64,000 bases of DNA from Acidimicrobiia bacterium (GTDB taxonomy: Bacteria > Actinomycetota > Acidimicrobiia > Spongiisociales > Spongiisociaceae): positions 1,799,469 to 1,863,468 of the forward strand of contig OZ246890.1 of assembly GCA_965231815.1 (NCBI GenBank), read 5' to 3'. Shown here piece after piece: positions 2,934-62,244 of the stretch. Within the stretch, counting starts at the first letter, position 1, and the number at the start of each line of letters is the position of its first letter. A program made the translations under genes and the position numbers. A model generated the notes under the pieces. That model saw only the letters and a list, made by a program, of their open reading frames with translations. It made no database searches and had not been told where the DNA came from.

Positions 2934-3944
2934 TTAGCCGGGCGCCTTCGGAGTGAGGAACGGCATCAAGTCACGGAGCCGGGCGCCGACCTGCTCGATC
3001 TCATGGCTTCGTTCCCGTGCTCTGGTGTCGAGAAGCCGCGGAGCGCCTGCGCGGGCCTCGGTCATCCAGTTGCGAGCGAAAGTTCCGGACCGGATATCCT
3101 CCAGAACGTCCTTCATGACCTTGCGCGTCTCATCGGTAATGATACGGGGACCGGTGGAATAGTCTCCCCATTCGGCGGTGTCGGACACCGAATAGCGCAT
3201 CCACGTCAAGCCGCCCTCGTAGAGGAGGTCAACGATCAACTTCAACTCGTGAAGGGTCTCGAAGTAGGCGGACTCGGGTTGGTACCCGCCCTCGACCAGC
3301 GTCTCGTAAGACGCTTTGATCAACTCGGACAGACCACCGCACAGGATGACCTGCTCCCCGAACAGGTCGGTTTCGGTTTCTTCTTTGAAGGTGGTCTCCA
3401 GCACTCCGGCTCTGGCGCCGCCTATCGCCCATGCGTAGGAGAGGCCGAGTTCATGGCAGGCGCCGGATGAGTCTTGATGCACGGCTAGCAGGCACGGTAC
3501 GCCGGAACCTTCCGTGTAGGTGCGGCGCACTAGGTGTCCCGGACCTTTCGGGGCGACCATCAGAACGTCGAGATCTTTGTCGGGGCTGATCTCACCGAAG
3601 TGGATGTTGAACCCGTGGGCAAACATCAGGGCGTCGCCGTTTTGGAGGTGGGGGGCGATCTCCGCGTGGTATAGGTCGGCGGCGTGCTGGTCAGGTACCA
3701 GGACCATGACTACGTTCGCCCATTCGGAAACCTCCGCTACCGAGGCGACCGCGAGACCTTCGCCCTCGGCTTCCAACCGTCGCCGGGACGTCTCTCTGAG
3801 GCCGACCTTGACCTCCACGCCGGACTCCCGGAGGTTGAGAGCATGCGCATGGCCTTGGCTTCCGTACCCGATTACGGCCACCCGGCGGCTTGATATTACG
3901 GCCGGATCCGCATCGTGGTCGTAGTAGATGGAAGCCATGCTCAC
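2934..3944 (-). CDS. ilvC: Ketol-acid reductoisomerase
   Basis: [17 protein letters not shown] Rossmann motif and IlvC body. Confidence 0.9.
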
Positions 3945-3996
3945 CTTTCCCTGGTAGTCGAGCGAATACGGACTATGGAAACCGACTCGGCGGGCG

Positions 3997-4500
3997 TCAT
4001 CCCACCGCTTTCAGTTTCCGGACTTTGGGTTCACGGCGGATCCCGATACGTCCTGACTTGACCAGTTCCATGATGCCGAACGGGCGTACCAGATCCAGGA
4101 AGTCGTTGAGTTTGGAGGGTTTGCCCGCCATCAGCAGCGTGATCGAGTTGACGGCCACATCGACCGGAGTGGCGTTGAAGATCGAGGCGAGATCTATCAC
4201 TTCCCCGCGGCGGCCGGGAGTGGCGTTGATCTTGACCAGCATGATCTCGCGCTCGATTGAGGTGGCGGGATCGAGTTCGGTTATCTTCACCACGTTGACC
4301 AGTTTGTGGAGTTGTTTCTTGACCTGTTCGAGTTCCGCGGCCATGACTACGATGGTCATCGTCGATAGGCCGGCATCAGCGGTCGGGCCGACTGCCAGGG
4401 AATGGATATTGAAACCCCTCCGTGCCAGCAGCGACGCGACCCGGGCGAGGACGCCGGGTTTATCCTCCACCAGCACGCTCAGCACCCGATGATCCCTCAT
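3997..4500 (-). CDS. ilvN: Acetolactate synthase small (regulatory) subunit
   Basis: ACT-domain N-terminus [16 protein letters not shown]; position between ilvB and ilvC. Confidence 0.85.
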
Positions 4501-6197
4501 AGGTCTTCAGGTCCCGTTAGCACGACGTCGTTGGATCCTCCGGCGGGCACCATCGGGAATACCATCTCATCGCGATCCACCTCGAACTCCACGACCACCG
4601 ATCGGTCTTCGATCTCGAGCATCCGCTTGATCGTGTCGTCGACATCCTCGGGACGGTCGGCCCGCAGCCCCACGCATCCCATAGCTTCAGCAAGCTTGAC
4701 GTAATCAGGGAGGTGTCTGCCTAGGTCGGAGGATGAGAACCGTTCGTTGTAGAACAGGCGTTGCCATTGTCTGACCATGCCATGGGCGCTGTTGTTGAAT
4801 ACGGCTACCTTGATGGGGATCTTCTCTACCGAGGCGGTGATCAGCTCCTGAACGGTCATCTGGAAACACCCGTCACCGTCCACGGCTATCACCTGTTTAT
4901 CAGGTCTACCGGCCTTGGCGCCGATGGCTGCCGGGACTGCGAAGCCCATAGTGCCCAGACCTCCGGAGTTGATCCAGTGCCGAGGTTTGTCGAATCCCCA
5001 GTACTGCGAAGCCCACATCTGATGCTGGCCGACCCCCGAGACTACGATGGAATCCTTGTCGGCCAGTTCCCGCAGGCGGGTAAGCACGAACTGAGGTTTG
5101 ATCGGACCGTCCGGTTCCTGCTCGAACCGGAGAGGATGCGTGTCCTGCCATTCCCGGATGGTTCGCCACCATTTCCGTAGCCTTGGCTTCGGGGTATCAC
5201 CCCAGCGCTCGCAGAATGCTTCCAGTATGCGGCCCGCATCTCCTACGATCGGTACCTCCGGAGTACGCACCTTGCCTATTTCGGCCGGGTCTACGTCCCC
5301 GTGAATCACCTTGGCGAAAGGGGCGAAGGAGTTCGGATCGCCCGTGACCCGATCGTCGAAACGAACCCCGACCGCCACCAGCACGTCCGACTTTTGTATC
5401 GCTGTCGTTGCCGCGTATAGCCCGTGCATGCCGGGCATCCCGAGCGTATTCGGATGGCTGTCGGGAATGGCGCCTCTTCCCATCAGGGTGGTCACGACGG
5501 GCATATTGGTCATTTCGGCGAAGGCCAGGAGAGCAGCCGACGCGTTGGCCTTGATGATCCCACCCCCCACGTACAGGACGGGTTGCTCAGCGCCCTGGAT
5601 CATCCGGACGGCTTCTGCGATCCGGCGCGGATGCGGGTTGACGGTGGGGCGGTAACCGGGCATGGATACCGGACCGGGATCGCTCCACTGCAGGGAGGCG
5701 TTCAGTATGTCCTTCGGTAGGTCGACCAGGACGGGTCCGGGCCGCCCTGTCGAGGCGACATGAAACGCTTCGGCCAAGACCTGTGGAATCTCGTCGGGAT
5801 CGGAGACGAAGTAGTTGTGTTTGGTGGCCGGCATGGTGATACCGGTGGTGTACGCCTCCTGGAAAGCGTCATTTCCCACTGCGTTGGTCGGAACCTGTCC
5901 GGTGATAGCCACCATAGGAACCGAGTCCATCAGCGCATCGGCGAGTGGAGTCACGAGGTTGGTGGCGCCCGGCCCCGACGTGGCGATCGTCACCCCGACT
6001 TTGCCCGTTGCCCAAGCATATCCCTCCGCCATGTGTCCGGCACCCTGTTCGTGACGGGCCAGGATATGGCGAAAACCGGCCTCCAGCATCGGATCGTAGG
6101 CGGGCAGGATGGCGCCGCCGGGAATACCGAACGCTACCTCGACATCCAGGTATTCCAGAGCCTTGATCAGTGCTCCTGCACCGGTGATTGTGCTCAT
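4497..6197 (-). CDS. ilvB: Acetolactate synthase large subunit (TPP-dependent)
   Basis: 566-aa TPP enzyme with typical ALS N-terminus; 4-bp overlap with ilvN start. Confidence 0.9.
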   Translation of the reverse strand: MSTITGAGALIKALEYLDVEVAFGIPGGAILPAYDPMLEAGFRHILARHEQGAGHMAEGYAWATGKVGVTIATSGPGATNLVTPLADALMDSVPMVAITGQVPTNAVGNDAFQEAYTTGITMPATKHNYFVSDPDEIPQVLAEAFHVASTGRPGPVLVDLPKDILNASLQWSDPGPVSMPGYRPTVNPHPRRIAEAVRMIQGAEQPVLYVGGGIIKANASAALLAFAEMTNMPVVTTLMGRGAIPDSHPNTLGMPGMHGLYAATTAIQKSDVLVAVGVRFDDRVTGDPNSFAPFAKVIHGDVDPAEIGKVRTPEVPIVGDAGRILEAFCERWGDTPKPRLRKWWRTIREWQDTHPLRFEQEPDGPIKPQFVLTRLRELADKDSIVVSGVGQHQMWASQYWGFDKPRHWINSGGLGTMGFAVPAAIGAKAGRPDKQVIAVDGDGCFQMTVQELITASVEKIPIKVAVFNNSAHGMVRQWQRLFYNERFSSSDLGRHLPDYVKLAEAMGCVGLRADRPEDVDDTIKRMLEIEDRSVVVEFEVDRDEMVFPMVPAGGSNDVVLTGPEDL

Positions 6198-43246: not shown

Positions 43247-43625
43247 TGTCCCGAGTCGGAAGTTCCGTGCACATCGCGAGTAACCACCCGGCCTGCTTCC
43301 GGCACAGACCCGGGTTAAGATCGCGAAAACCGAACTACCCGGATGGGACCCCTCTCAGTGGGACCCACCCCCGGCCGCCGCCTCCTCAGCGTCGAAACGC
43401 GTCCCGCTAACCCCTCGCCTTGCCAAACAGAGGCAAGGCAGAAGAAAACAAGCAAGATGATCCCAACCCCGGTCCGGTCGGTACCTGACCCAACCGTCGG
43501 TGCTTTACGGTTACCCACCAGTATGCAGACCGGGTATGACAGATTTCCCCGGCCGTCGGGTTACGCCCGTCGGAAAGATTTCGCGGTCTCCCGAACACAA
43601 GCGAAACAACGATTCACGACACTAG

Positions 43626-54332: not shown

Positions 54333-55550
54333 TCACCCGGATGGTGAGAGATCAACCCGCTCGTAGCCCCGGATCACAAATCCGTCCTCCCGCTCGGGTT
54401 CGGTAAGAAGAGCGAGGCGAGGCATGGCGATGGCGAGCCGTCCCAACGCGACCTCCAGTTCGAGCCGAGCCAGCGGCGCCCCCAAGCAGTAGTGAACCCC
54501 GCCGCCGAAGGATATGTGGTCGGAGTTTCCGCGGTCGATCCTGAACCGGTCAGGTATGTCAAATCGGCGGGGGTCGCGGTTAGCCGACCCGAATAGCAGC
54601 GCGATCTTGTCACCGGGTGGGATCTTCGTTCCGGCGATTTCGATTCCGTCGGCGATAGCGTAACGCTCGAACATCTGTAAGGGGGGATCGAAACGCAGCA
54701 TCTCCTCGATTGCCACGGCCGATGTCACGGCGCCGCCGGTGAGACGCAGCCACTCTCCTCCGTTCATCGCCGCGACTATCCCATTTCCCAGAGTGTTGAC
54801 TGTGGCTTCGTGTCCTGCATTGAGAAGAAGGACGATGGTCGAGATAATCTCGGGATCGGACAGCTTACCTTGCGCGGTCTCCGCGAAGCAGAGCGCGGTA
54901 ATCAGATCATCCCGGGGCTCTGCTCGCCGGGTGGCGATCAGCTCGGAAGCCCACTCCGAAAACTCTCGCGATGCGTTGACGGCCTCCCGGGCCTGGGAAT
55001 GCGTGGTATGTAGTTCGTACATCTTGACTATGGCGTGCGACCATTCCAGAAGCAGGTCGGCGTCGTCGAGGGGGGCGCCCAGCAGGGTGGCTATCACCCG
55101 AACCGAGTAGGGCTGCGCGTAGTCGGCCAACAGGTCGAAACGATCCCGGTCACGAAGTTCTACCAACAGGGAGTCCGCAATCTCGGTTATCGGGCCTCTT
55201 AGCGCTCTAACCCGCCGGGGGGTGAAGGCTCGGTTTACCAGGGATCGAATCCGGGTGTGCTCGGGCGGTTCGAGCATCAACAATGAGTGTCGCTCAACTT
55301 GGTAGTAGGGTTCCCAACCTTGCAGGTCCAGTTCCCTTATAGGCCGCAGATCGGAAGGGAGCGCGTGTCCCTGCCGGACCCGGCCGAGCCGACGATCCAG
55401 TTGAGCGGCGCGCACGTCCCGATGACGAGTAACCAACCATAGGTTCCATGCGTGGTCATAGTGGATCGGTCCTCTCTCGCGCAGGTCGTTGAGGATCGGG
55501 TAGGGGTCTCGGATGAAATCCGGATCGGCTGGATTGAAGAAGTCAGCCAT
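54333..55550 (-). CDS. Cytochrome P450
   Basis: Heme-binding FGGGVHYCLGAPLARLE, EXXR helix; start at MADFFNP. Confidence 0.85.
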   Translation of the reverse strand: MADFFNPADPDFIRDPYPILNDLRERGPIHYDHAWNLWLVTRHRDVRAAQLDRRLGRVRQGHALPSDLRPIRELDLQGWEPYYQVERHSLLMLEPPEHTRIRSLVNRAFTPRRVRALRGPITEIADSLLVELRDRDRFDLLADYAQPYSVRVIATLLGAPLDDADLLLEWSHAIVKMYELHTTHSQAREAVNASREFSEWASELIATRRAEPRDDLITALCFAETAQGKLSDPEIISTIVLLLNAGHEATVNTLGNGIVAAMNGGEWLRLTGGAVTSAVAIEEMLRFDPPLQMFERYAIADGIEIAGTKIPPGDKIALLFGSANRDPRRFDIPDRFRIDRGNSDHISFGGGVHYCLGAPLARLELEVALGRLAIAMPRLALLTEPEREDGFVIRGYERVDLSPSG

Positions 55551-56452
55551 TAACCGTTCGTGCCGACGGTCTCCAGCGTCGCCGCTTCTTGTACCCGTCC
55601 CCAAAAATACAGTTCTTCGATGGCCAACTCATCAAATGCCTGTTCCCCTCCGAGCGATTCCGACGCATAGGTAGCTGTCACGCGGATGGTGAGCTCCAGT
55701 GTGTGGTTAGTAGACGTCGTGATAGGCAGGGGTCGCTCATTGGTGTTGTCGATCTCGGCGACAAACGGAACCCCTGGTAGGTCATCGGTCTCGATCTCCA
55801 CTGCCCTCACCCGGTAGTTCCTGAGGAACTTCTCCTCGTTGCGGACGTTCTGGATCTGGACCGATTCGAGAGCCACCGGGCTCACAAAGGTGATGTCGAT
55901 CCAGGCATCTTCTCCTTTTAGGCCTGCGTCGTTCCAGTAGGTGTCCCTGTTGTCGATGAGGTTCTCGCATGCAAGGTTGGCGTTGTATTCGCTGGAACAG
56001 GTGATCGAGATCGGTGTGATCCGCTCCAGCGGTCCGATTGCTCGGGTAGTCGGAGTGGTGCTGGATCCGGTCGTTGCCGCATCTTCGGCGACGCTTTCAG
56101 GTGGTTCTTCATCGCCGCGAATCGCCTGGATAACCAAGGCTGCGACCACAACTAGGGCGATGACTACTACGATGATGCCCAGTGCTCGGCCACCGGCGGT
56201 AACCGATCGGAGGGGAGGGGCCGCTACGGCGATCTGTTGCTGTCCTAGCCTGGCGCCGCACTGTTCGCAATGGCGGTTCGAACTCCTCTGGTCCTCTCCA
56301 CAGGACGGGCAGGTCAGATAAGATTCCGCGGAAGACTGCACCGCCGCGTCGTCGGCGCCTTCCCAATCGTCGGGTTCCGTTAGTTCGAACTCCTCGAAGT
56401 CGATGCCCTCCAGCGGGTCGTCCCAGGAACCGTCCCCTCGGCCGTTGCTCAT
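55550..56452 (-). CDS. Membrane protein with N-terminal zinc ribbon, one TM segment and extracytoplasmic beta-sandwich-like domain
   Basis: CPSCG ... CEQCGARL then IIVVVIALVVVAALVI TM segment. Confidence 0.5.
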   Translation of the reverse strand: MSNGRGDGSWDDPLEGIDFEEFELTEPDDWEGADDAAVQSSAESYLTCPSCGEDQRSSNRHCEQCGARLGQQQIAVAAPPLRSVTAGGRALGIIVVVIALVVVAALVIQAIRGDEEPPESVAEDAATTGSSTTPTTRAIGPLERITPISITCSSEYNANLACENLIDNRDTYWNDAGLKGEDAWIDITFVSPVALESVQIQNVRNEEKFLRNYRVRAVEIETDDLPGVPFVAEIDNTNERPLPITTSTNHTLELTIRVTATYASESLGGEQAFDELAIEELYFWGRVQEAATLETVGTNG

Positions 56453-56756: not shown

Positions 56757-57815
56757 ATGACCGAACGCGTTTCCCTGCTACGAATCCTTTCTCGGCTGGC
56801 TCCGGGCACCGCTCTGCGGACCGCGGTCGAGCGCATAATCCAGCAGGGCAACGGAGCTCTGGTGATACTGGGCTCGACCGCCGATATCGAAGCTGTTGCG
56901 TACGGAGGGTTCGTGCTTCGGGATTCCGAGTTCAGCCCTGCCCGGCTGGCGGAACTAGCCAAAATGGATGGAGCGACCATCCTTGATGACAGCGGGAGTT
57001 GGATATTGCGGGCTAACGCCCACCTACTCCCCGATCCGTCCATCAGAACCGATGAGACAGGCGCCCGCTTCCGTACCGCCGAGCGGATGGCCAAGATGTC
57101 CGAACGGCCGGTACTGGCCATCAGTGAGGAACGGGGTCAGTGCTTCGTATTCTACGGGGATCGTAAGCAGCGCCTCAGCAGTCCCTCCGAGTTGCTGGCC
57201 CGTATCAACCAGGAGTTCCAGACTCTGGAACACTTCAGGCGCCGGATGGTCCAGGCAAAAGAGAGGCTTACGCGATTGGAAGTCAATGACGAGGTGACCC
57301 TCGGAGATGCGATCGTGGTGCTACAGAGAACCGAGTTGGTTCGGCGCCTTGGTGAACGGGTAGAGCGTCTGGCTGTGGACCTGGGTGAGGAGGGTCACAT
57401 GGTCGACCTGCAACAGGCCGATCTGGTGACCGGTGTAGAGGAGTTGCGCGAGTTGGTGGCGAGGGACTATTTCCAGGAGAACGGAGATCGCGGGATGAGG
57501 GTCCTCAAGGTATTGGAGGATCGTCCATTGCAGGACATCTACGATACCGAGCGGGTCTGCAGGTTGTTAGAGGTGGAGGGCATCGGCACGCGAACACGAC
57601 CTGCGGGCTACCGGTTTGTGAATGGCATCCCCGGTATCCCACCGTCCGTCCACCAGGGTCTGGTGGACAACTTTCACGAACCGGGTAAGCTCATGCTGGC
57701 CTCTGAGACAGAGTTGAGCTCGGTGTCCGGAGTAGGGGAGACGATGGCGGCGACCATACGTCGCCATCTAGATCAGGTAGCGCGCCAGTACCGGCATACC
57801 GGAACCAACCATTAG
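56757..57815 (+). CDS. disA: DNA integrity scanning protein DisA (diadenylate cyclase family) with variant RHR motif
   Basis: DAC domain with DGATILDD; expected GTRHRTAER is TGARFRTAER; C-terminal HhH region. Confidence 0.8.
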   Translation: MTERVSLLRILSRLAPGTALRTAVERIIQQGNGALVILGSTADIEAVAYGGFVLRDSEFSPARLAELAKMDGATILDDSGSWILRANAHLLPDPSIRTDETGARFRTAERMAKMSERPVLAISEERGQCFVFYGDRKQRLSSPSELLARINQEFQTLEHFRRRMVQAKERLTRLEVNDEVTLGDAIVVLQRTELVRRLGERVERLAVDLGEEGHMVDLQQADLVTGVEELRELVARDYFQENGDRGMRVLKVLEDRPLQDIYDTERVCRLLEVEGIGTRTRPAGYRFVNGIPGIPPSVHQGLVDNFHEPGKLMLASETELSSVSGVGETMAATIRRHLDQVARQYRHTGTNH

Positions 57816-57889
57816 CCCTGATTGAGGTCGGCTCAACTTGTCGCCACGGGCGGCAATATAGATTCCTCTCGGGAGTTAGGATCAGATAG

Positions 57890-58774
57890 ATGATTGAAAC
57901 GCGGGTTGTTCGTAGTTCCGATGCCGCTGGTGGGTCGGATGGATCGGAGGGTGGTTTGGAAGAGACCGGAGAGGTGTCGGTTGCTCCGGCCCGTCAGGTT
58001 CCCAAGAAGGCAGCCGCTAAGAAAGCTGCCGCTAAGAAAGCTGCCGCTAAGAAGGCACCTGCCAAGAAGGCTGCCGCTAAGAAGGCACCTGCCAAGAAGG
58101 CTGCCGCTAAGAAGGCTGCCGCTAAGAGGGCTCCCGCCAAGAAGGCTGCCCCTAAGAAAGCTGCCGCCAAGAGGGCTCCCGCCAAGAAAGCGCCCGTGAG
58201 GAGGGCCCCACCCAAGCGCCGGAATCCGCGGTCACGCAAAGCTTCCCGGAAGTCGTCTTCAACCAATAGGCGGAAGATTTCATTCAAAGTAGGCGACAAG
58301 GTAGTCCATCCTCATCACGGAGCTGCGTTGATCACCAGACAAGTTGAACAGGAGGTCGTGGGCGAGAGTCGTTCCTACTTCGAACTCCAAGTTGCAACCG
58401 AACAACTCACCGTGTTCGTGCCGGTAACGTCGATGGATCAGATTATCCGGCCGGTGATCTCCAAGACCGCCGCTACCAAAGTGATGCGCATCTTCAAGGA
58501 AGACCCTCAGTCATCGGGAAACAACTGGAGTCGATGGTACAAGGTGCTCAACGAGAAGATGACCTCCGGCGACATCTACCAAGTGGCGGAGGTGGTCAGG
58601 GATCTGACCTATTCCCAGCACACCAAAGGTATTTCCCCGGCCCTCAAACGCATGCTGTCACGGGCACGGGTAACGCTGACCAGTGAACTCGCCTATGCCC
58701 TCAGTATCAGCACGGAAGAGGCGGTCGAGCGTCTTGATCGGGCTCTCCCCGATGCGGAGTCCGTAGGCGTTTAG
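57890..58774 (+). CDS. carD: CarD/CdnL-family RNA polymerase-binding regulator with ~130-aa N-terminal Lys/Ala-repeat extension
   Basis: [21 protein letters not shown]-interacting domain and [28 protein letters not shown]; N-terminal [10 protein letters not shown] repeats; followed by ispD-ispF-cysS as in mycobacteria. Confidence 0.8.
58005..58195 (+). repeat. Tandem 15-bp coding repeat (GCCGCTAAGAAAGCT-like, AAKKA pentapeptide) inside carD
   Basis: About 12 consecutive near-identical 15-nt units. Confidence 0.7.
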
Positions 58775-59056
58775 GGCTTGATCGTTCATGTTTCCGGCTC
58801 CCTTGTGTCCTGAGTCGGAGATTCATTGACGATCGCGATAACCATCCGGGTGCACCGGCAGGTTCGGGGGTCCGAGAACGCGAAAAACGCCGGAACGGTG
58901 ACCTCCAAACAGGGCCCGCCCCCGCCTCCACCTCCGAGGTCTCCTGAACGCGATCCGCTGAACCCCGTCGTCGGGGGAGACGGTCGAATTGTCCGCATTT
59001 TGATGATCCCTGCCCCGGTTCGTTCGGTACCGAACAACCCGAACCGGCGGTGTTTA

Positions 59057-59263
59057 ACCCCGATTTTTCATGCGAGGCGTTTGCCCCGGCGATTTGGCAG
59101 CCTGAATGGGCTCCTGACCTGGGATTACGGTGGACTTGACAGGCTCGTCGGGTTGACCGCGACCGTCACCCATGAGCTGTATACGAATGGAGCACGTAAA
59201 ACGGGCTTGACCTGGCGGTTTATGGGTGGGTGTGTCTGGAAACATGAAGAATCAGGGTTAAGG
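59057..59263 (+). repeat. Degenerate family B copy B5
   Basis: Ends CCCCGATTTTTCATG ... GGAAACATGAAGAATCAGGGTTAAGG match B termini at B-like length; interior strongly diverged. Confidence 0.5.
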
Positions 59264-59408
59264 CTATCCACCATTATGCAAACAGGGGGGGACACTTCCG
59301 GAATCCGACACCCGGAATCCGCGACCCAATCCGGAACACACCGGCTGGTCGGATCGATCCTTCCCCCGAGACGAGGCTTCCCGCAACACAAGCGAATAGG
59401 TACGTGCA

Positions 59409-60146
59409 GTGTCTGACCGGCGGATCGAGCGCGTTTGGGGTGTTGTGGTGGCTGCGGGAAGAGGTCGACGCTTCGGAGCGCCCAAACACACCATCCGCTT
59501 CAAGGGCAAGGCTTTGTGGGAATGGGCTCGCGATGCTCTCCTGCAAAGCGGGGCCGATCAGGTGGTCGTGGTGGGACCGGTGCCCGGCGGGGTAGAGGGT
59601 GGTCCGGAACGTCACATTTCGGTTGCCCGCGGCGTAGATGAAGTCGATCTGGCGGCAACCATCGTGGCCGTGCACGATGCAGCCCGACCATTCGCTCCGG
59701 CTCGTATGATCGCCCGCATGTATACCGTGATGAGGGAAGCACGAGCCGATGGTGTTATACCCGTTGTGACCATTCCCGATGCCTTAAAGCATGTCGACGG
59801 GGAGAGCGGTCGGGTAGTGAAGACCCTGAGCAGAGGCAGGGTCTTCGCGGCCCAGACACCCCAGGTGTTCCGTCCTGATGTTCTCCGGCGAGCGCACGCC
59901 CATTACGCCGGGTTGGACTATCCCGACCCGGCGCCCGATGACGCGGCCATGGTCGAGAGGATCGGAGGCCGGGTGGTTACCGTACCCGGTGACCGGTTAG
60001 CCATGAAGATCACCTATCCGGAGGACCTGCTGCTAGCCCGAACCCTGCTCGCCCGGAGTTCCCGACCCGCCGTTGGAGGAGGACAAGATGGGGAAGCTGA
60101 AGTGGATTGTCTTGGCGGAATCCATGTCCGAACCCCAGCTCCGTGA
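59409..60146 (+). CDS. ispD: 2-C-methyl-D-erythritol 4-phosphate cytidylyltransferase
   Basis: VVAAGRGRRFG N-terminal motif. Confidence 0.85.
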   Translation: MSDRRIERVWGVVVAAGRGRRFGAPKHTIRFKGKALWEWARDALLQSGADQVVVVGPVPGGVEGGPERHISVARGVDEVDLAATIVAVHDAARPFAPARMIARMYTVMREARADGVIPVVTIPDALKHVDGESGRVVKTLSRGRVFAAQTPQVFRPDVLRRAHAHYAGLDYPDPAPDDAAMVERIGGRVVTVPGDRLAMKITYPEDLLLARTLLARSSRPAVGGGQDGEAEVDCLGGIHVRTPAP

Positions 60147-60203
60147 GGGAATCCGGATAGAGAGGATGCTCGTGCCATCTAGATCCGCGGTCGATCGGAG
60201 GCC

Positions 60204-60710
60204 GTGATGGGAGCAGCCGTTCGGATCGGTTCGGGGTTTGACTCCCACCGGATCGGAGGAGCCCCACCCTTGAAGTTGGCCGGAGTCGTTGTGGACCGGA
60301 ACCAGGGGCTGGTCGCGACATCCGATGGAGATGTGGTTGCCCACGCCGTTGCCGACGCTCTACTAGGAGGGGCTGCTCTCGGTGATGTGGGAATGCTCTT
60401 CCCGTCCGGGGACGAGCGATGGCGCGGCGCCGACAGCATGGAGCTACTGGCCCGAGTGGTCGATAGTCTCGCCGCCGAGGGAATGGCGATCGGCAACCTC
60501 GATGTCACGGTGATTGCCGAACTGGTCCGGGTAGCTCCCCACCGAGAGTTGATGCGAAGTCGTCTCGCTTCCGTATTGAGAACGGATGTAGACCGGATAT
60601 CGGTCAAAGCCACCACTACCGACGGAATGGGCTCCATAGGTCGTGGGGAAGGCATCGCGGCCTCTGCGGTGGCGCTCCTCGTATCGGTCCCGACGGACGG
60701 CTCGTCTTAG
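60204..60710 (+). CDS. ispF: 2-C-methyl-D-erythritol 2,4-cyclodiphosphate synthase
   Basis: RIGSGFDSHRIG ... DGDVVAHAVADALLGA. Confidence 0.9.
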   Translation: MMGAAVRIGSGFDSHRIGGAPPLKLAGVVVDRNQGLVATSDGDVVAHAVADALLGGAALGDVGMLFPSGDERWRGADSMELLARVVDSLAAEGMAIGNLDVTVIAELVRVAPHRELMRSRLASVLRTDVDRISVKATTTDGMGSIGRGEGIAASAVALLVSVPTDGSS

Positions 60711-60840: not shown

Positions 60841-62244
60841 GTGACGACTTTCTATAACACCCTCGGTCGGCGACACCAGAGTTTCGAGCCCTTGGAGAAA
60901 GGTCGGGTCACTCTCTACGTGTGCGGGCCAACCGTTCAGTCTGCCCCCCATCTGGGGCACGGACGGAGCGCGGTCGCCTTCGACGTAGTCCGGCGTTACC
61001 TGGTCTGGAGAGGCTGGAAGGTTCAATACGTTCGCAACATCACGGACGTGGACGACAAGATCATCGCCAATGCCTCCCGTCTCGGAGTATCCACCGAGTC
61101 ATTGGCCCGGGACATGGCTGCCCGTTTCCGGGACGCCTACCGGCGGCTTAACGTTCTCGATCCGGACGTGGAGCCGGCGGCGACCGACCACATTCCTGAG
61201 ATGATCGAGATGATTTCCCGGCTGATAAGTCGAGGTTTCGCTTACAAGGGCGGTAAAGATGTCTACTTCCGGGTCCGGGCTCTCGACGGCTACGGGAAGC
61301 TATCGGGTCGGAACGTAGACGAGTTGAGGGCGGGTACGCGGATCGAACCGGGAGTGGACAAGGAAGATCCTCTTGACTTTGCTCTTTGGAAAGCCGCCAA
61401 GCCGGGTGAACCGTTCTGGCCTTCTCCGTGGGGTCCGGGGAGGCCGGGATGGCACATCGAGTGCTCGGCGATGTCCGCCAAGTATCTAGGCACACCGTTC
61501 GATATTCACGCCGGTGGCGCCGACCTGATCTTCCCTCATCATGAGAACGAGATAGCACAGACGGAGGGGGCATCCGGGCGAGGCTTGGCCCGCTACTGGT
61601 TACACAACGGAATGGTCAATCTGGGGGGAGCGAAGCTTTCCAAATCAACCGGACATGTGATCGACTTGGCCGAAGCCATAGCAACGTACGGAGGTCCGGT
61701 AGTTCGCCTGTTCTACCTACGGGCTTCCTACCGTTCTCCCCTGGAGTTCTCGACCGGGTTTCTCGAGGAGGCGGCGATCGGCCTGGAGCGGATCCGGTCC
61801 CTTCTACGGAGAGCGTCGCCGGTCACGGAACCCGGCGATGAGGCGACCCTGGAGCGCTTCGTGGCGGCTATGGATGATGACTTCAATACGGCTGAGGCGT
61901 TGGGAGTGCTCTTCGACGCGGTGCGGGAAGGGAACGCGGTGCTTGACCGCGGGCGGAAGGCCGATCCGTGGGCGTCCGCGGTGCGGGAAATGTGTGACGT
62001 ACTGGGAATTGATCTAGCCGAGGAAGGTCTGGAGGACTTGGAGGTACCTCTTGTCGAGCTCGCCTCCTCCTACGGATTTGCCACTGTGGACTCTTCGATC
62101 GCCCTCGATAACCTGCTCGGCTTGAGGGATAGGGCCAGAAGGGATCGGGACTGGGCACAGGCCGACGCCGTGCGCGATGGCTTGGCGGCGATCGGGATCC
62201 TGTTAGAGGATTCAGCCGATGGCACCCGCTGGTATCGGCGCTAG
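60841..62244 (+). CDS. cysS: Cysteine--tRNA ligase
   Basis: YVCGPTVQSAPHLGHGRS (HIGH) and KLSKSTGH (KMSKS). Confidence 0.9.
   Translation: MTTFYNTLGRRHQSFEPLEKGRVTLYVCGPTVQSAPHLGHGRSAVAFDVVRRYLVWRGWKVQYVRNITDVDDKIIANASRLGVSTESLARDMAARFRDAYRRLNVLDPDVEPAATDHIPEMIEMISRLISRGFAYKGGKDVYFRVRALDGYGKLSGRNVDELRAGTRIEPGVDKEDPLDFALWKAAKPGEPFWPSPWGPGRPGWHIECSAMSAKYLGTPFDIHAGGADLIFPHHENEIAQTEGASGRGLARYWLHNGMVNLGGAKLSKSTGHVIDLAEAIATYGGPVVRLFYLRASYRSPLEFSTGFLEEAAIGLERIRSLLRRASPVTEPGDEATLERFVAAMDDDFNTAEALGVLFDAVREGNAVLDRGRKADPWASAVREMCDVLGIDLAEEGLEDLEVPLVELASSYGFATVDSSIALDNLLGLRDRARRDRDWAQADAVRDGLAAIGILLEDSADGTRWYRR

What the first reader, a model, noticed from the sequence alone, without database searches (positions are those of the whole stretch)
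57890..58774. CarD/CdnL fused to an N-terminal histone-H1/HU-tail-like AKKAA repeat domain
The C-terminal ~160 aa align along their full length with mycobacterial CarD. The protein begins with ~130 aa dominated by [10 protein letters not shown] repeats, encoded by about 12 tandem 15-bp units at 58005-58195. Such Lys/Ala tails occur on actinobacterial HU (HupB) and confer DNA binding. Myxococcus CarD instead carries a C-terminal HMGA-like domain. An N-terminal basic tail on CarD would be an independent, convergent way to tether this RNAP-binding regulator to DNA. The repeat array is also a likely site of length polymorphism.
Basis: partly seen in the sequence, partly recalled or inferred. Interest (0 to 1): 0.5.

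Follow-up and report, generated by a model that had tools for sequence, protein, structure and literature searches.

The report
CarD regulator with lysine-rich N-terminal tail
This gene encodes the housekeeping RNA-polymerase-binding factor CarD of an Acidimicrobiia-type actinobacterium with a translated, disordered, strongly positive Lys/Ala/Pro repeat tail at its front end; the tail is common in that group, varies in length between strains and probably holds the factor on DNA, though that has not been tested.

Summary
ORF 57890-58774 (+) encodes a 294-aa protein. Residues 131-287 align end to end with M. tuberculosis CarD (E 4e-30) and keep the Trp wedge and basic-patch residues. Residues 1-130 are an add-on in three parts: an acidic Gly/Ser leader (1-37), 13 (A/P)KKA(A/P) pentapeptides from 12.3 tandem 15-bp units (38-103), and an Arg/Ser-rich linker (104-130). 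The tail is translated. A stop codon lies directly before the ATG. The RBS and ATG are conserved in sister genomes. Every indel after the ATG is a multiple of 3, whereas upstream indels are not. Tail dN/dS is about 0.12. No conserved internal start exists. Repeat number differs between close relatives, in 5-aa steps within 90%-identity clusters. The architecture is not unique: most close homologues, labelled Acidimicrobiia, carry such an N-terminal tail. Other CarDs carry Lys/Ala/Pro tails at the C-terminus, and one alphaproteobacterial CdnL has an N-terminal one. A CarD with a C-terminal histone-H1-like domain is already published (Anaeromyxobacter). I found no paper on the N-terminal form. 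I rate it a new variant of a known kind; DNA tethering is the likely function but is inferred. Interest is moderate to low.

The parts
57890..58774 (+). carD coding sequence: 294 aa, 31.7 kDa, pI 10.6, stop codon included
   Evidence: ORF list. A 100% identical protein, P0001, exists in public data on a 4.08-Mb contig. Pfam domains. PDB sequence match.
57871..57881 (+). Shine-Dalgarno-like GGGAG (57871-57875) and AGGA (57878-57881), the latter 8 nt before the ATG
   Evidence: Read from the sequence. The stretch TCGGGAGTTAGGATCAG is identical in sister genomes L005 and L006.
57887..57889 (+). In-frame TAG directly before the ATG, which fixes the upstream limit of the ORF
57859..57864 (+). Candidate -10 hexamer TAGATT (TANNNT type); weak and inferred only
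   Evidence: Read from the sequence and conserved in L005/L006. The consensus promoter scan found no sigma-70 site in this region.
57890..58000 (+). Leader, codons 1-37: acidic, Gly/Ser-rich, net -4, fast-evolving
   Evidence: Charge. dN/dS 0.36-1.0. The N-terminal MIE(T/M/A) is conserved in P0002-P0005, P0013 and P0016. pLDDT about 47-52 with no secondary structure.
58001..58198 (+). Lys/Ala/Pro repeat block, codons 38-103: 13 pentapeptides (A/P)K(K/R)A(A/P), net +26, encoded by the 15-bp/45-bp tandem array
   Evidence: TRF. Unit table, with mismatches at codon positions 1/2/3 = 7/2/16. dN/dS 0.11-0.13. Predicted disordered.
58199..58279 (+). Arg/Ser-rich basic linker, codons 104-130 ([27 protein letters not shown]), net +13
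   Evidence: A similar [11 protein letters not shown] motif occurs in the closest relatives.
58283..58459 (+). RNAP-interacting domain (RID, Tudor-like), residues 132-190
   Evidence: Pfam PF02559, 51.2 bits. Modelled as a beta-sheet with pLDDT above 89. Foldseek matches to CarD in RNAP complexes 8hvr_H and 6edt_M.
58478..58738 (+). CarD C-terminal helical domain, residues 197-283
   Evidence: Pfam PF21095, 90.2 bits. Modelled as helices with pLDDT 86-96.
58526..58528 (+). TGG codon for W213, the equivalent of M. tuberculosis CarD W85 (minor-groove wedge)
   Evidence: Residue mapping from the alignment. W213 is invariant in the 40-sequence alignment A1.
56757..57815 (+). disA, the upstream neighbour (synteny marker)
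   Evidence: Pfam DAC + DisA-linker + HHH.
59409..60710 (+). ispD (59409-60146) and ispF (60204-60710), downstream neighbours as in mycobacteria; cysS follows at 60841-62244
   Evidence: Pfam IspD and YgbB. ORF list. Same gene order in L005/L006.

Best explanation
The gene is the syntenic, housekeeping CarD/CdnL orthologue (disA-carD-ispD-ispF-cysS) of an Acidimicrobiia-type actinobacterium. Its core should work like mycobacterial CarD. The RID docks on the RNAP beta-1 lobe, and the helical C-terminal domain places the conserved Trp (W213) and basic residues (K218, K246, K253, R254) at the upstream edge of the transcription bubble to stabilise the open promoter complex. A 130-residue, translated, intrinsically disordered extension with net charge +35 sits in front of the RID. 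The most likely role of its Lys/Ala/Pro pentapeptide repeats and Arg/Ser linker is sequence-nonspecific electrostatic binding to duplex DNA. That would keep CarD concentrated on the nucleoid and add contacts to promoter-flanking DNA, slowing its dissociation from initiation complexes. The 15-bp repeat array expands and contracts by slippage or unequal recombination, so tail length varies between strains while composition is kept by selection. Shown here: the anatomy, translation of the tail, selection on it, the polymorphism and the clade-wide distribution. Inferred: DNA binding and its effect on transcription.
For: Core identity. Pfam RID and CarD_C. Full-length alignment to Mtb CarD at E 4e-30. 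AF2 core pLDDT 84-96, with best Foldseek hits to CarD inside Streptomyces and Mtb RNAP promoter complexes. W85, K90, R118, K125 and R126 equivalents are invariant in 40 homologues. Mycobacterium-like synteny.

Tail is translated. A TAG stop lies immediately before ATG 57890. RBS and ATG are conserved in L005 and L006. Upstream indels are 1-2 nt, whereas all indels after the ATG are multiples of 3. Tail dN/dS is 0.11-0.13, against 0.05-0.09 in the core. Within the array, variation is concentrated at codon position 3 (16, against 7 and 2). The only in-frame alternative starts are TTG 57956 and GTG 57974, both upstream of the repeats, and GTG 58196, which is GCA in the sister genomes.

Tail is conserved as a feature. 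About 117 of the 133 homologues in which the core start was located have a basic N-terminal extension of at least 60 aa. Typical values are K+R about 0.3 and net charge +20 to +78. In the unbiased core-only search, 7 of the 10 closest representatives carry it.

Disorder. There is no secondary structure and pLDDT is about 50 over residues 1-130.

Analogy. PAKKA-type tails on HU/Hlp and Ku interact with DNA and alter DNA-binding behaviour (PMC3553676). Lysine repeats in Streptomyces TopA stabilise the enzyme-DNA complex (PMC5714199). The H1-like C-terminal domain of Anaeromyxobacter CarD can replace the DNA-binding HMGA-like domain of M. xanthus CarD (PMC2919716). Independent placement at the C-terminus in other CarDs (L003, P0169, P0171, P0250) and at the N-terminus in a Marinicaulis CdnL (L004) argues for a position-independent, generic polycation function.
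Against: There is no experimental evidence for DNA binding, and none that the tail reaches promoter DNA in the RNAP complex. I could not compute the geometry. The leader evolves almost neutrally. Some close relatives lack a tail altogether: P0139/L007 has stop codons just upstream and disA adjacent. So the tail is not essential for CarD function in this clade. In M. smegmatis Ku, removing the PAKKA tail increased DNA affinity (PMC3553676), so such tails modulate DNA binding rather than simply adding to it. Gene callers disagree on the start: short forms P0129 and P0132 are internal-start calls of the same genes. No proteomic or ribosome-profiling data were available.
Confidence: 0.6

Rival explanations
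1. The repeat region is not part of the protein. Translation starts internally, just before the CarD core, and the upstream open frame is a non-coding or leader tandem repeat.
For: Some database entries for orthologues are short internal-start calls: P0132 (161 aa, MNDKVVH...), P0129 and P0136. In L005 and L006 the Val codon of FKVGD is GTG. The leader has dN/dS near 1.
Against: In the window that codon is GTA, and no ATG/GTG/TTG lies in frame between 58196 and 58328. GTG 58196 is not conserved and has no SD-like sequence upstream. Tail dN/dS is about 0.12. All indels are in frame. Variation is concentrated at codon position 3. Lys/Ala/Pro composition is maintained across more than 100 divergent homologues whose repeat units differ. 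An internal start at V134 would remove the nearly invariant F132.
Confidence: 0.05
2. The tail is translated, but its main partner is not duplex DNA. It could bind RNA or polyphosphate, drive condensate formation with nucleic acids, or act as a regulated degron or modification platform (Ser/Thr phosphorylation in the Arg/Ser linker, Lys acylation) that tunes CarD level or activity.
For: The tail is a disordered polycation. The linker is Ser/Thr-rich. The tail is dispensable in some relatives and its length varies rapidly, as expected for a tuning module. From my own knowledge rather than any tool result here: mycobacterial CarD abundance is controlled post-translationally, and Lys-rich proteins bind polyphosphate.
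Against: No data here point specifically to RNA, polyphosphate or proteolysis. The characterised PAKKA/H1-like tails on bacterial proteins (HU, Ku, TopA, myxobacterial CarD) act on DNA (PMC3553676, PMC5714199, PMC2919716). These roles are also not exclusive of DNA binding.
Confidence: 0.2
3. The tail is a largely neutral by-product of repeat expansion, which is tolerated because disordered N-terminal extensions do not disturb the RID. It has no specific function.
For: There is rapid gain and loss of units between strains. Tail-less relatives exist. The DNA is low-complexity and prone to slippage.
Against: Purifying selection acts on the amino-acid sequence of the repeats (dN/dS about 0.12). 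Basic tails of 60-210 aa persist across a deep clade with 50-97% core identity. Tails were acquired independently at the other terminus and in another phylum.
Confidence: 0.1

Closest known systems
Mycobacterium tuberculosis / Streptomyces CarD (PDB 4KBM, 6EDT, 8HVR), the essential RNAP-binding open-complex stabiliser
   Same: The two-domain core (RID + helical CTD) aligns over its full length at about 41-42% identity. The Trp wedge and CTD basic residues are conserved. The gene neighbourhood is the same, with ispD/ispF/cysS downstream and disA upstream.
   Different: The characterised proteins are 160-162 aa with no extension; here 130 basic, disordered residues precede the RID. The Mtb R25 and R47 positions are Q154 and F176 here (mapping). 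That R25 and R47 matter for RNAP binding in Mtb is from my own knowledge. Core pI is 6.9 and whole-protein pI is 10.6.
Anaeromyxobacter dehalogenans CarDAd and Myxococcus xanthus CarD (CarD proper, myxobacteria only)
   Same: A CdnL-like RNAP-binding module is fused to a basic, low-complexity DNA-binding region. In CarDAd that region resembles histone H1, and it can replace the HMGA-like domain of M. xanthus CarD (PMC2919716). M. xanthus CarD also pairs an acidic stretch with the basic one, as the leader and repeats do here.
   Different: In myxobacteria the tail is C-terminal. It sits on a non-essential paralogue that works with CarG at ECF-sigma promoters, and a separate tail-less CdnL does the housekeeping job (PMC8156234). 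Here the tail is N-terminal and sits on the syntenic housekeeping orthologue. There are no AT-hooks. A CarG partner was not examined.
PAKKA / lysine-repeat tails of actinobacterial and Deinococcus DNA proteins (HU/Hlp/HupB/HupS, M. smegmatis Ku, Streptomyces TopA)
   Same: The same (P/A)AKKA pentapeptide chemistry, terminal position, rapid length evolution and predicted disorder. D. radiodurans HU carries its tail at the N-terminus (PMC3553676, PMC5714199).
   Different: Those tails are attached to proteins that already bind DNA through their folded domain. According to the myxobacterial literature, CarD/CdnL cores do not bind DNA on their own (PMC8156234). Here the tail would therefore supply most of the free protein's DNA affinity.
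Other tailed CarD/CdnL proteins seen here (uncharacterised)
   Same: Lys/Ala/Pro tails occur on syntenic CarD in another Acidimicrobiia MAG (L003) and in P0169, P0171, P0176, P0235, P0250 and P0254. There is an N-terminal tail of about 170 aa on a Marinicaulis (Alphaproteobacteria) CdnL, L004.
   Different: In most of these the tail is at the C-terminus. Core identity to the window protein is only 31-46%. Except for L003 and L004, their taxonomy is not known to me.

Membership tests
CarD/CdnL (CarD_CdnL_TRCF family, stand-alone RNAP-binding regulators) | N-terminal Tudor-like RNAP-interacting domain (Pfam PF02559) | tested here: met
   51.2 bits against a cut-off of 23, residues 132-190 covering the whole 57-position profile. 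Modelled as a beta-sheet with pLDDT above 89.
CarD/CdnL (CarD_CdnL_TRCF family, stand-alone RNAP-binding regulators) | Helical CarD C-terminal domain (PF21095) with the conserved Trp wedge and basic patch | tested here: met
   90.2 bits against a cut-off of 23.1. W213 = Mtb W85, K253 = K125, R254 = R126 and K218 = K90, all invariant in alignment A1.
CarD/CdnL (CarD_CdnL_TRCF family, stand-alone RNAP-binding regulators) | Fold equivalent to solved CarD structures | tested here: met
   Foldseek: 8hvr_H (E 7.6e-13, TM to target 0.78) and 6edt_M (E 5.3e-11, TM to target 0.77).
CarD/CdnL (CarD_CdnL_TRCF family, stand-alone RNAP-binding regulators) | Orthology to actinobacterial carD by gene neighbourhood (carD-ispD-ispF-cysS) | tested here: met
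   The mycobacterial gene order itself is from my own knowledge.
CarD/CdnL (CarD_CdnL_TRCF family, stand-alone RNAP-binding regulators) | Physical binding to the RNAP beta-1 lobe and stabilisation of the open complex | not testable with these tools
   This needs biochemistry. Note that the Mtb R25 and R47 positions are Q and F here.
Myxobacterial CarD proper (HMGA-type or H1-type) | C-terminal DNA-binding domain with AT-hooks, or an H1-like region, following the CdnL-like module | tested here: not met
   The basic region is N-terminal. The sequence has no RGRP AT-hook. The protein ends 7 residues after the last residue aligned to Mtb CarD.
Myxobacterial CarD proper (HMGA-type or H1-type) | Works with the CarG partner; coexists with a separate CdnL | not tested
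   Only 64 kb of the genome is available.
Histone H1-like / Hc2 nucleoproteins (Pfam PF07382, NCBIfam NF038052/NF038053) | Score above the curated family cut-off, indicating homology rather than shared composition | tested here: inconclusive
   Pfam HC2 scores 40.3 bits against a cut-off of 40 on a low-complexity segment. NCBIfam hist_H1_lk_Burk scores 46 against 80, and histone_lik_HC2 scores 29.6 against 135, so neither is met. I treat this as compositional resemblance only.
PAKKA-type lysine-rich low-complexity tails (HU/Hlp, Ku, TopA type) | Tandem (P/A)AKKA-like pentapeptides at a protein terminus, strongly basic and disordered | tested here: met
   13 units of (A/P)K(K/R)A(A/P). Net charge +26. 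No secondary structure and pLDDT about 50.
PAKKA-type lysine-rich low-complexity tails (HU/Hlp, Ku, TopA type) | Binds DNA or alters the DNA-binding behaviour of the host protein | not testable with these tools
   Needs EMSA with and without the tail.

The most novel reading that the evidence does not exclude
In this clade the polycationic tail, not the RNAP contact, is the primary recruitment route. CarD would behave as a nucleoid-associated protein pre-positioned on DNA, perhaps biased to AT-rich promoter regions of a 61% GC genome. It would engage RNAP only at promoters, compensating for weakened RID-beta contacts (the Mtb R25 and R47 positions are Q and F). Repeated independent gains of such tails at either terminus in Acidimicrobiia, Alphaproteobacteria and Myxococcota would then show that DNA tethering is a general, tunable control on CarD/CdnL activity, with repeat number acting as a strain-level tuning knob for global transcription.
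Probability: 0.15. Interest if true: 0.6.

Novelty: new variant of a known kind. Interest (0 to 1): 0.35.

Why it matters
CarD/CdnL is a global, often essential regulator of transcription initiation. Reviews describe it as a stand-alone protein of about 160 aa that lacks a DNA-binding appendage; only the myxobacterial CarD paralogue is known to have one. Here the housekeeping orthologue of a whole, poorly studied actinobacterial class usually carries a selected, length-variable polycationic tail. Tails have also appeared at the other terminus and in another phylum. These natural variants could be used to ask how much CarD function depends on DNA tethering. There is also a practical point for annotation: gene callers often truncate these genes at internal GTG codons, or label them 'histone H1-like repetitive region-containing protein'.

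Tried and rejected
Of 600 candidate stretches only 4 were confirmed as loci, so I could not map tail presence on named species.
2. An exact look-up of the window protein's contig failed because it is not on record. The cluster look-up gave no organism names. Placement in Acidimicrobiia therefore rests on the source names of homologues.
3. Literature searches for an N-terminal basic tail on CarD/CdnL found nothing relevant. The term 'CARD' is polluted by unrelated usages. The combination 'CdnL' + 'N-terminal extension' returned 0 papers. The PNAS 2009 paper on the H1-like CarD domain is not held, so I cite it through PMC2919716.
4. The consensus promoter and terminator scan found nothing at 57500-59500. 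The TAGATT -10 candidate is only my reading of the sequence.
5. I considered and rejected the minus-strand mirror ORF 57994-58299 (AAFLAAAFL...) and the +2 frame ORF 57894-58199 ([10 protein letters not shown]...). Both are by-products of the repeat. The selection pattern fits the carD frame.
6. I considered homology of the tail to Hc2/H1 families. The evidence is too weak and compositional.
7. Many long 'extensions' among the 50%-identity representatives turned out to be artefacts, such as frameshift read-through into ispD or over-long start calls in high-GC genomes. I did not count them as tails.

Full report
**1. What is in the sequence**

- The ORF 57890-58774 (+) is present exactly as reported and encodes 294 aa.
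- Tandem Repeats Finder reports a 15-bp unit in 12.3 copies at 58004-58188. It also reports the same array as a 45-bp unit in 4.2 copies.
- A 15-mer consensus with up to 3 mismatches occurs 13 times in the window, 10 of them in the array. Dinucleotide-preserving shuffles gave a mean of 1.45 and a maximum of 4.
- Read in the carD frame, the array gives 13 pentapeptides of the form (A/P)K(K/R)A(A/P).
- It is the only Lys/Ala/Pro-rich stretch in any frame of the 64-kb window.

**2. The folded part is a complete CarD**

- Pfam finds CarD_TRCF_RID at residues 132-190 and CarD_C at 197-283, both far above their cut-offs.
- phmmer against PDB sequences aligns residues 131/132-287 with residues 2/3-159 of M. 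tuberculosis CarD and the Streptomyces homologue, at E about 4e-30.
- An AlphaFold2 model built on 40 homologues has pLDDT 84-96 over residues 131-290. Its best Foldseek matches are CarD chains inside Streptomyces and M. tuberculosis RNAP promoter complexes: 8hvr_H and 6edt_M, TM to target 0.77-0.78.
- Residue mapping gives W213 = Mtb W85, K218 = K90, K246 = R118, K253 = K125 and R254 = R126. All are invariant in the 40-sequence alignment.
- The Mtb R25 and R47 positions are Q154 and F176 here.
- The gene sits between disA and ispD-ispF-cysS. The same order is seen in two sister genomes. I therefore treat it as the housekeeping orthologue, not an accessory paralogue. With only 64 kb available I could not check for a second copy in the genome.

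**3. The extension has three parts**

| Residues | Character | Net charge |
|---|---|---|
| 1-37 | acidic Gly/Ser leader | -4 |
| 38-103 | pentapeptide repeats | +26 |
| 104-130 | Arg/Ser-rich linker, [27 protein letters not shown] | +13 |

- The tail raises the pI from 6.9 for the core to 10.6 for the whole protein.
- The model shows no secondary structure and pLDDT about 50 over residues 1-130.

**4. Several independent lines say yes.

- An in-frame TAG (57887-57889) lies directly before the ATG, so the ORF cannot start further upstream.
- GGGAG and AGGA lie 19-15 and 12-9 nt upstream of the ATG. This whole stretch and the ATG are conserved in sister genomes L005 and L006, which are about 90% identical in DNA.
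- In that three-way alignment the intergenic indels are 1-2 nt. Every indel after the ATG is a multiple of 3: 24, 15, 30 and 3 nt.
- Nei-Gojobori dN/dS by region:

| Region | dN/dS |
|---|---|
| tail | 0.11-0.13 |
| core | 0.05-0.09 |
| leader | 0.36-1.0 (few sites) |

- Alignment of repeats may pair non-orthologous units. Even so, differences between units are overwhelmingly synonymous.
- Within the array, mismatches to the unit consensus fall 7, 2 and 16 times on codon positions 1, 2 and 3.
- The only in-frame ATG/GTG/TTG codons before the core are TTG 57956, GTG 57974 and GTG 58196. The first two lie upstream of the repeats. The third has no SD-like sequence upstream and is GCA in L005/L006.
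- The Val codon in FKVGD is GTG in the sister genomes, which is where some pipelines start the gene (for example P0132, MNDKVVH). In the window it is GTA.
- P0129 (184 aa) is an internal-start call of the same gene as P0041 (318 aa). The short database forms are therefore annotation choices, not evidence against the tail.
- The start MIE(T/M/A) recurs in more distant relatives: P0005, P0013, P0016, and inside the over-extended P0011.

**5. Distribution**

- A search with the whole protein gave 2013 hits. The core start could be located in 133 sequences (listed hits plus cluster members). About 117 of them have a basic N-terminal extension of at least 60 aa. The median extension is 117 aa and the maximum 211 aa, with K+R about 0.3.
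- That search is biased, because words from the tail help to select candidates. I therefore repeated it with the core alone against 1.84 billion 50%-identity representatives.
- Among the ten closest representatives, seven carry an N-terminal Lys/Ala/Pro tail: P0003, P0137, P0140, P0141, P0142, P0144 and P0146. One is a tandem double CarD. Two are tail-less: P0138 and P0139.
- P0139 is genuinely tail-less. In its contig, stop codons lie within about 10 codons upstream and disA ends 78 nt before the gene.
- Source names on homologues are 'Acidimicrobiia bacterium' or 'Actinomycetota'. I infer that the window (61% GC) comes from that class.

- Four proteins with 96-100% identical cores have total lengths of 294, 280, 275 and 269 aa. 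The differences lie within the tail.
- Inside three other 90%-identity clusters, lengths differ by -5, -20, -25 and -60 aa. These are whole pentapeptide (15-bp) steps.

**7. Tails elsewhere on the family**

- A syntenic CarD in another Acidimicrobiia MAG (L003, 46% identical) has no N-terminal tail. It ends in ...[18 protein letters not shown], immediately before ispD.
- P0169, P0171, P0176, P0235, P0250 and P0254 have C-terminal Lys/Ala/Pro tails of 53-131 aa.
- A Marinicaulis (Alphaproteobacteria) CdnL has an N-terminal tail of about 170 aa (L004).
- These cores are as distant from the window protein as tail-less M. tuberculosis CarD is, and the tails sit at opposite ends. Independent acquisition is therefore the simplest reading.

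**8. Comparison with what is known**

- Reviews describe CdnL as a stand-alone protein lacking the HMGA-like domain and not binding DNA by itself. They describe CarD proper as restricted to myxobacteria (PMC8156234).
- The 2010 census lists actinobacterial CdnL lengths of 137-301 and alphaproteobacterial lengths of 143-456, without comment (PMC2919716).
- The same paper states that Anaeromyxobacter CarDAd has a C-terminal domain resembling histone H1, and that this domain can be swapped with the HMGA-like domain of M. xanthus CarD without loss of function.
- An H1-like tail on a CarD-family protein is therefore not new in kind.
- What differs here is threefold: the N-terminal position, the host protein (the housekeeping orthologue), and the clade (Acidimicrobiia).
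- I found no paper describing this form. NCBI auto-annotation already labels one homologue 'histone H1-like repetitive region-containing protein' (P0081).
- PAKKA-type tails on HU/Hlp, Ku and TopA are the functional analogy. They contact DNA and change the binding mode, DNA end-joining or processivity. In Ku, removing the tail raised DNA affinity, so the effect is modulatory rather than simply additive (PMC3553676, PMC5714199).
- Homology of the tail to Hc2/H1 families is not established.

**9. Mechanism**

- Shown: an intact CarD core, and a translated, selected, disordered polycation of variable length in front of the RID.
- Inferred: the tail binds DNA non-specifically. This would raise the local concentration of CarD on the nucleoid and add contacts to DNA flanking the promoter once the RID is docked on the RNAP beta lobe, prolonging its residence on initiation complexes.
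- Alternatives are listed with their probabilities in the rival explanations: binding to RNA or polyphosphate, a regulatory or degron role, or a neutral repeat expansion.

**10. Verdict**

- The feature is a new variant of a known kind and is widespread rather than unique. Interest is moderate to low.

Noticed in passing
window 58771-59397: The carD-ispD intergenic region is about 627 bp here, but only about 93 bp in sister genome L005 (4840-4932), so there is a strain-specific insertion of about 530 bp. It has no Rfam match at E<=1 and only mechanical ORFs. It contains a 17-nt imperfect inverted repeat (58779-58795 / 59238-59254), a tandem CCGGAATCCG(A/C)(C/G)AC pair at 59298-59325, and a weak 57-nt similarity to window 43456-43508. 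Its nature is unexplained.
   Followed up: partly
homologues P0006, P0010, P0017, P0020, P0028, P0137 (not in the window): Some relatives encode two complete CarD cores in tandem in one polypeptide, joined by a short AKKPA-rich linker. P0137 (641 aa) has in addition a 288-aa Lys/Ala/Pro N-terminal tail. In the first core of P0137 (and of P0007, P0008 and P0012) the Trp-wedge motif reads DSDWRVWYK rather than SNWSRWYK; in P0006, P0010, P0017, P0020 and P0028 it reads DSWQRWYK.
   Followed up: no
L003 (Acidimicrobiia MAG) about 4000-4560; P0169, P0171, P0176, P0235, P0250, P0254: A different CarD subfamily, 36-46% identical, carries Lys/Ala/Pro tails at the C-terminus instead. In L003 the tail ends immediately before ispD.
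   Followed up: partly
L004 3608-4786 (Marinicaulis sp., Alphaproteobacteria): A CdnL homologue with an N-terminal Lys/Ala/Pro tail of about 170 aa plus a linker, and an Ala-rich C-terminal end. So tailed CdnL proteins also exist outside the Actinomycetota.
   Followed up: no
L001 about 3520-4000 (long-read MAG): The Lys/Ala/Pro repeat (MATKKTTTSSKAAPAKK...) is in a different reading frame from the CarD core downstream. This is most likely an assembly frameshift inside the repeat, and a warning that such arrays are error-prone in assemblies.
   Followed up: partly
window 58349-58351 and 58415-58417 (codons 154 and 176): The positions equivalent to M. tuberculosis CarD R25 and R47 are Gln and Phe here. 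From my own knowledge these two residues are implicated in the RNAP beta contact. V175 and P178, which flank the R47-equivalent position, are invariant in the 40-sequence alignment of this clade.
   Followed up: no
window 55550-56452 (-): The neighbouring ORF of 300 aa has an N-terminal zinc-ribbon-like CxxC...CxxC segment, a transmembrane stretch and a weak F5/F8 type C (discoidin) hit in the sister genomes. It is conserved next to a P450 gene upstream of disA.
   Followed up: no
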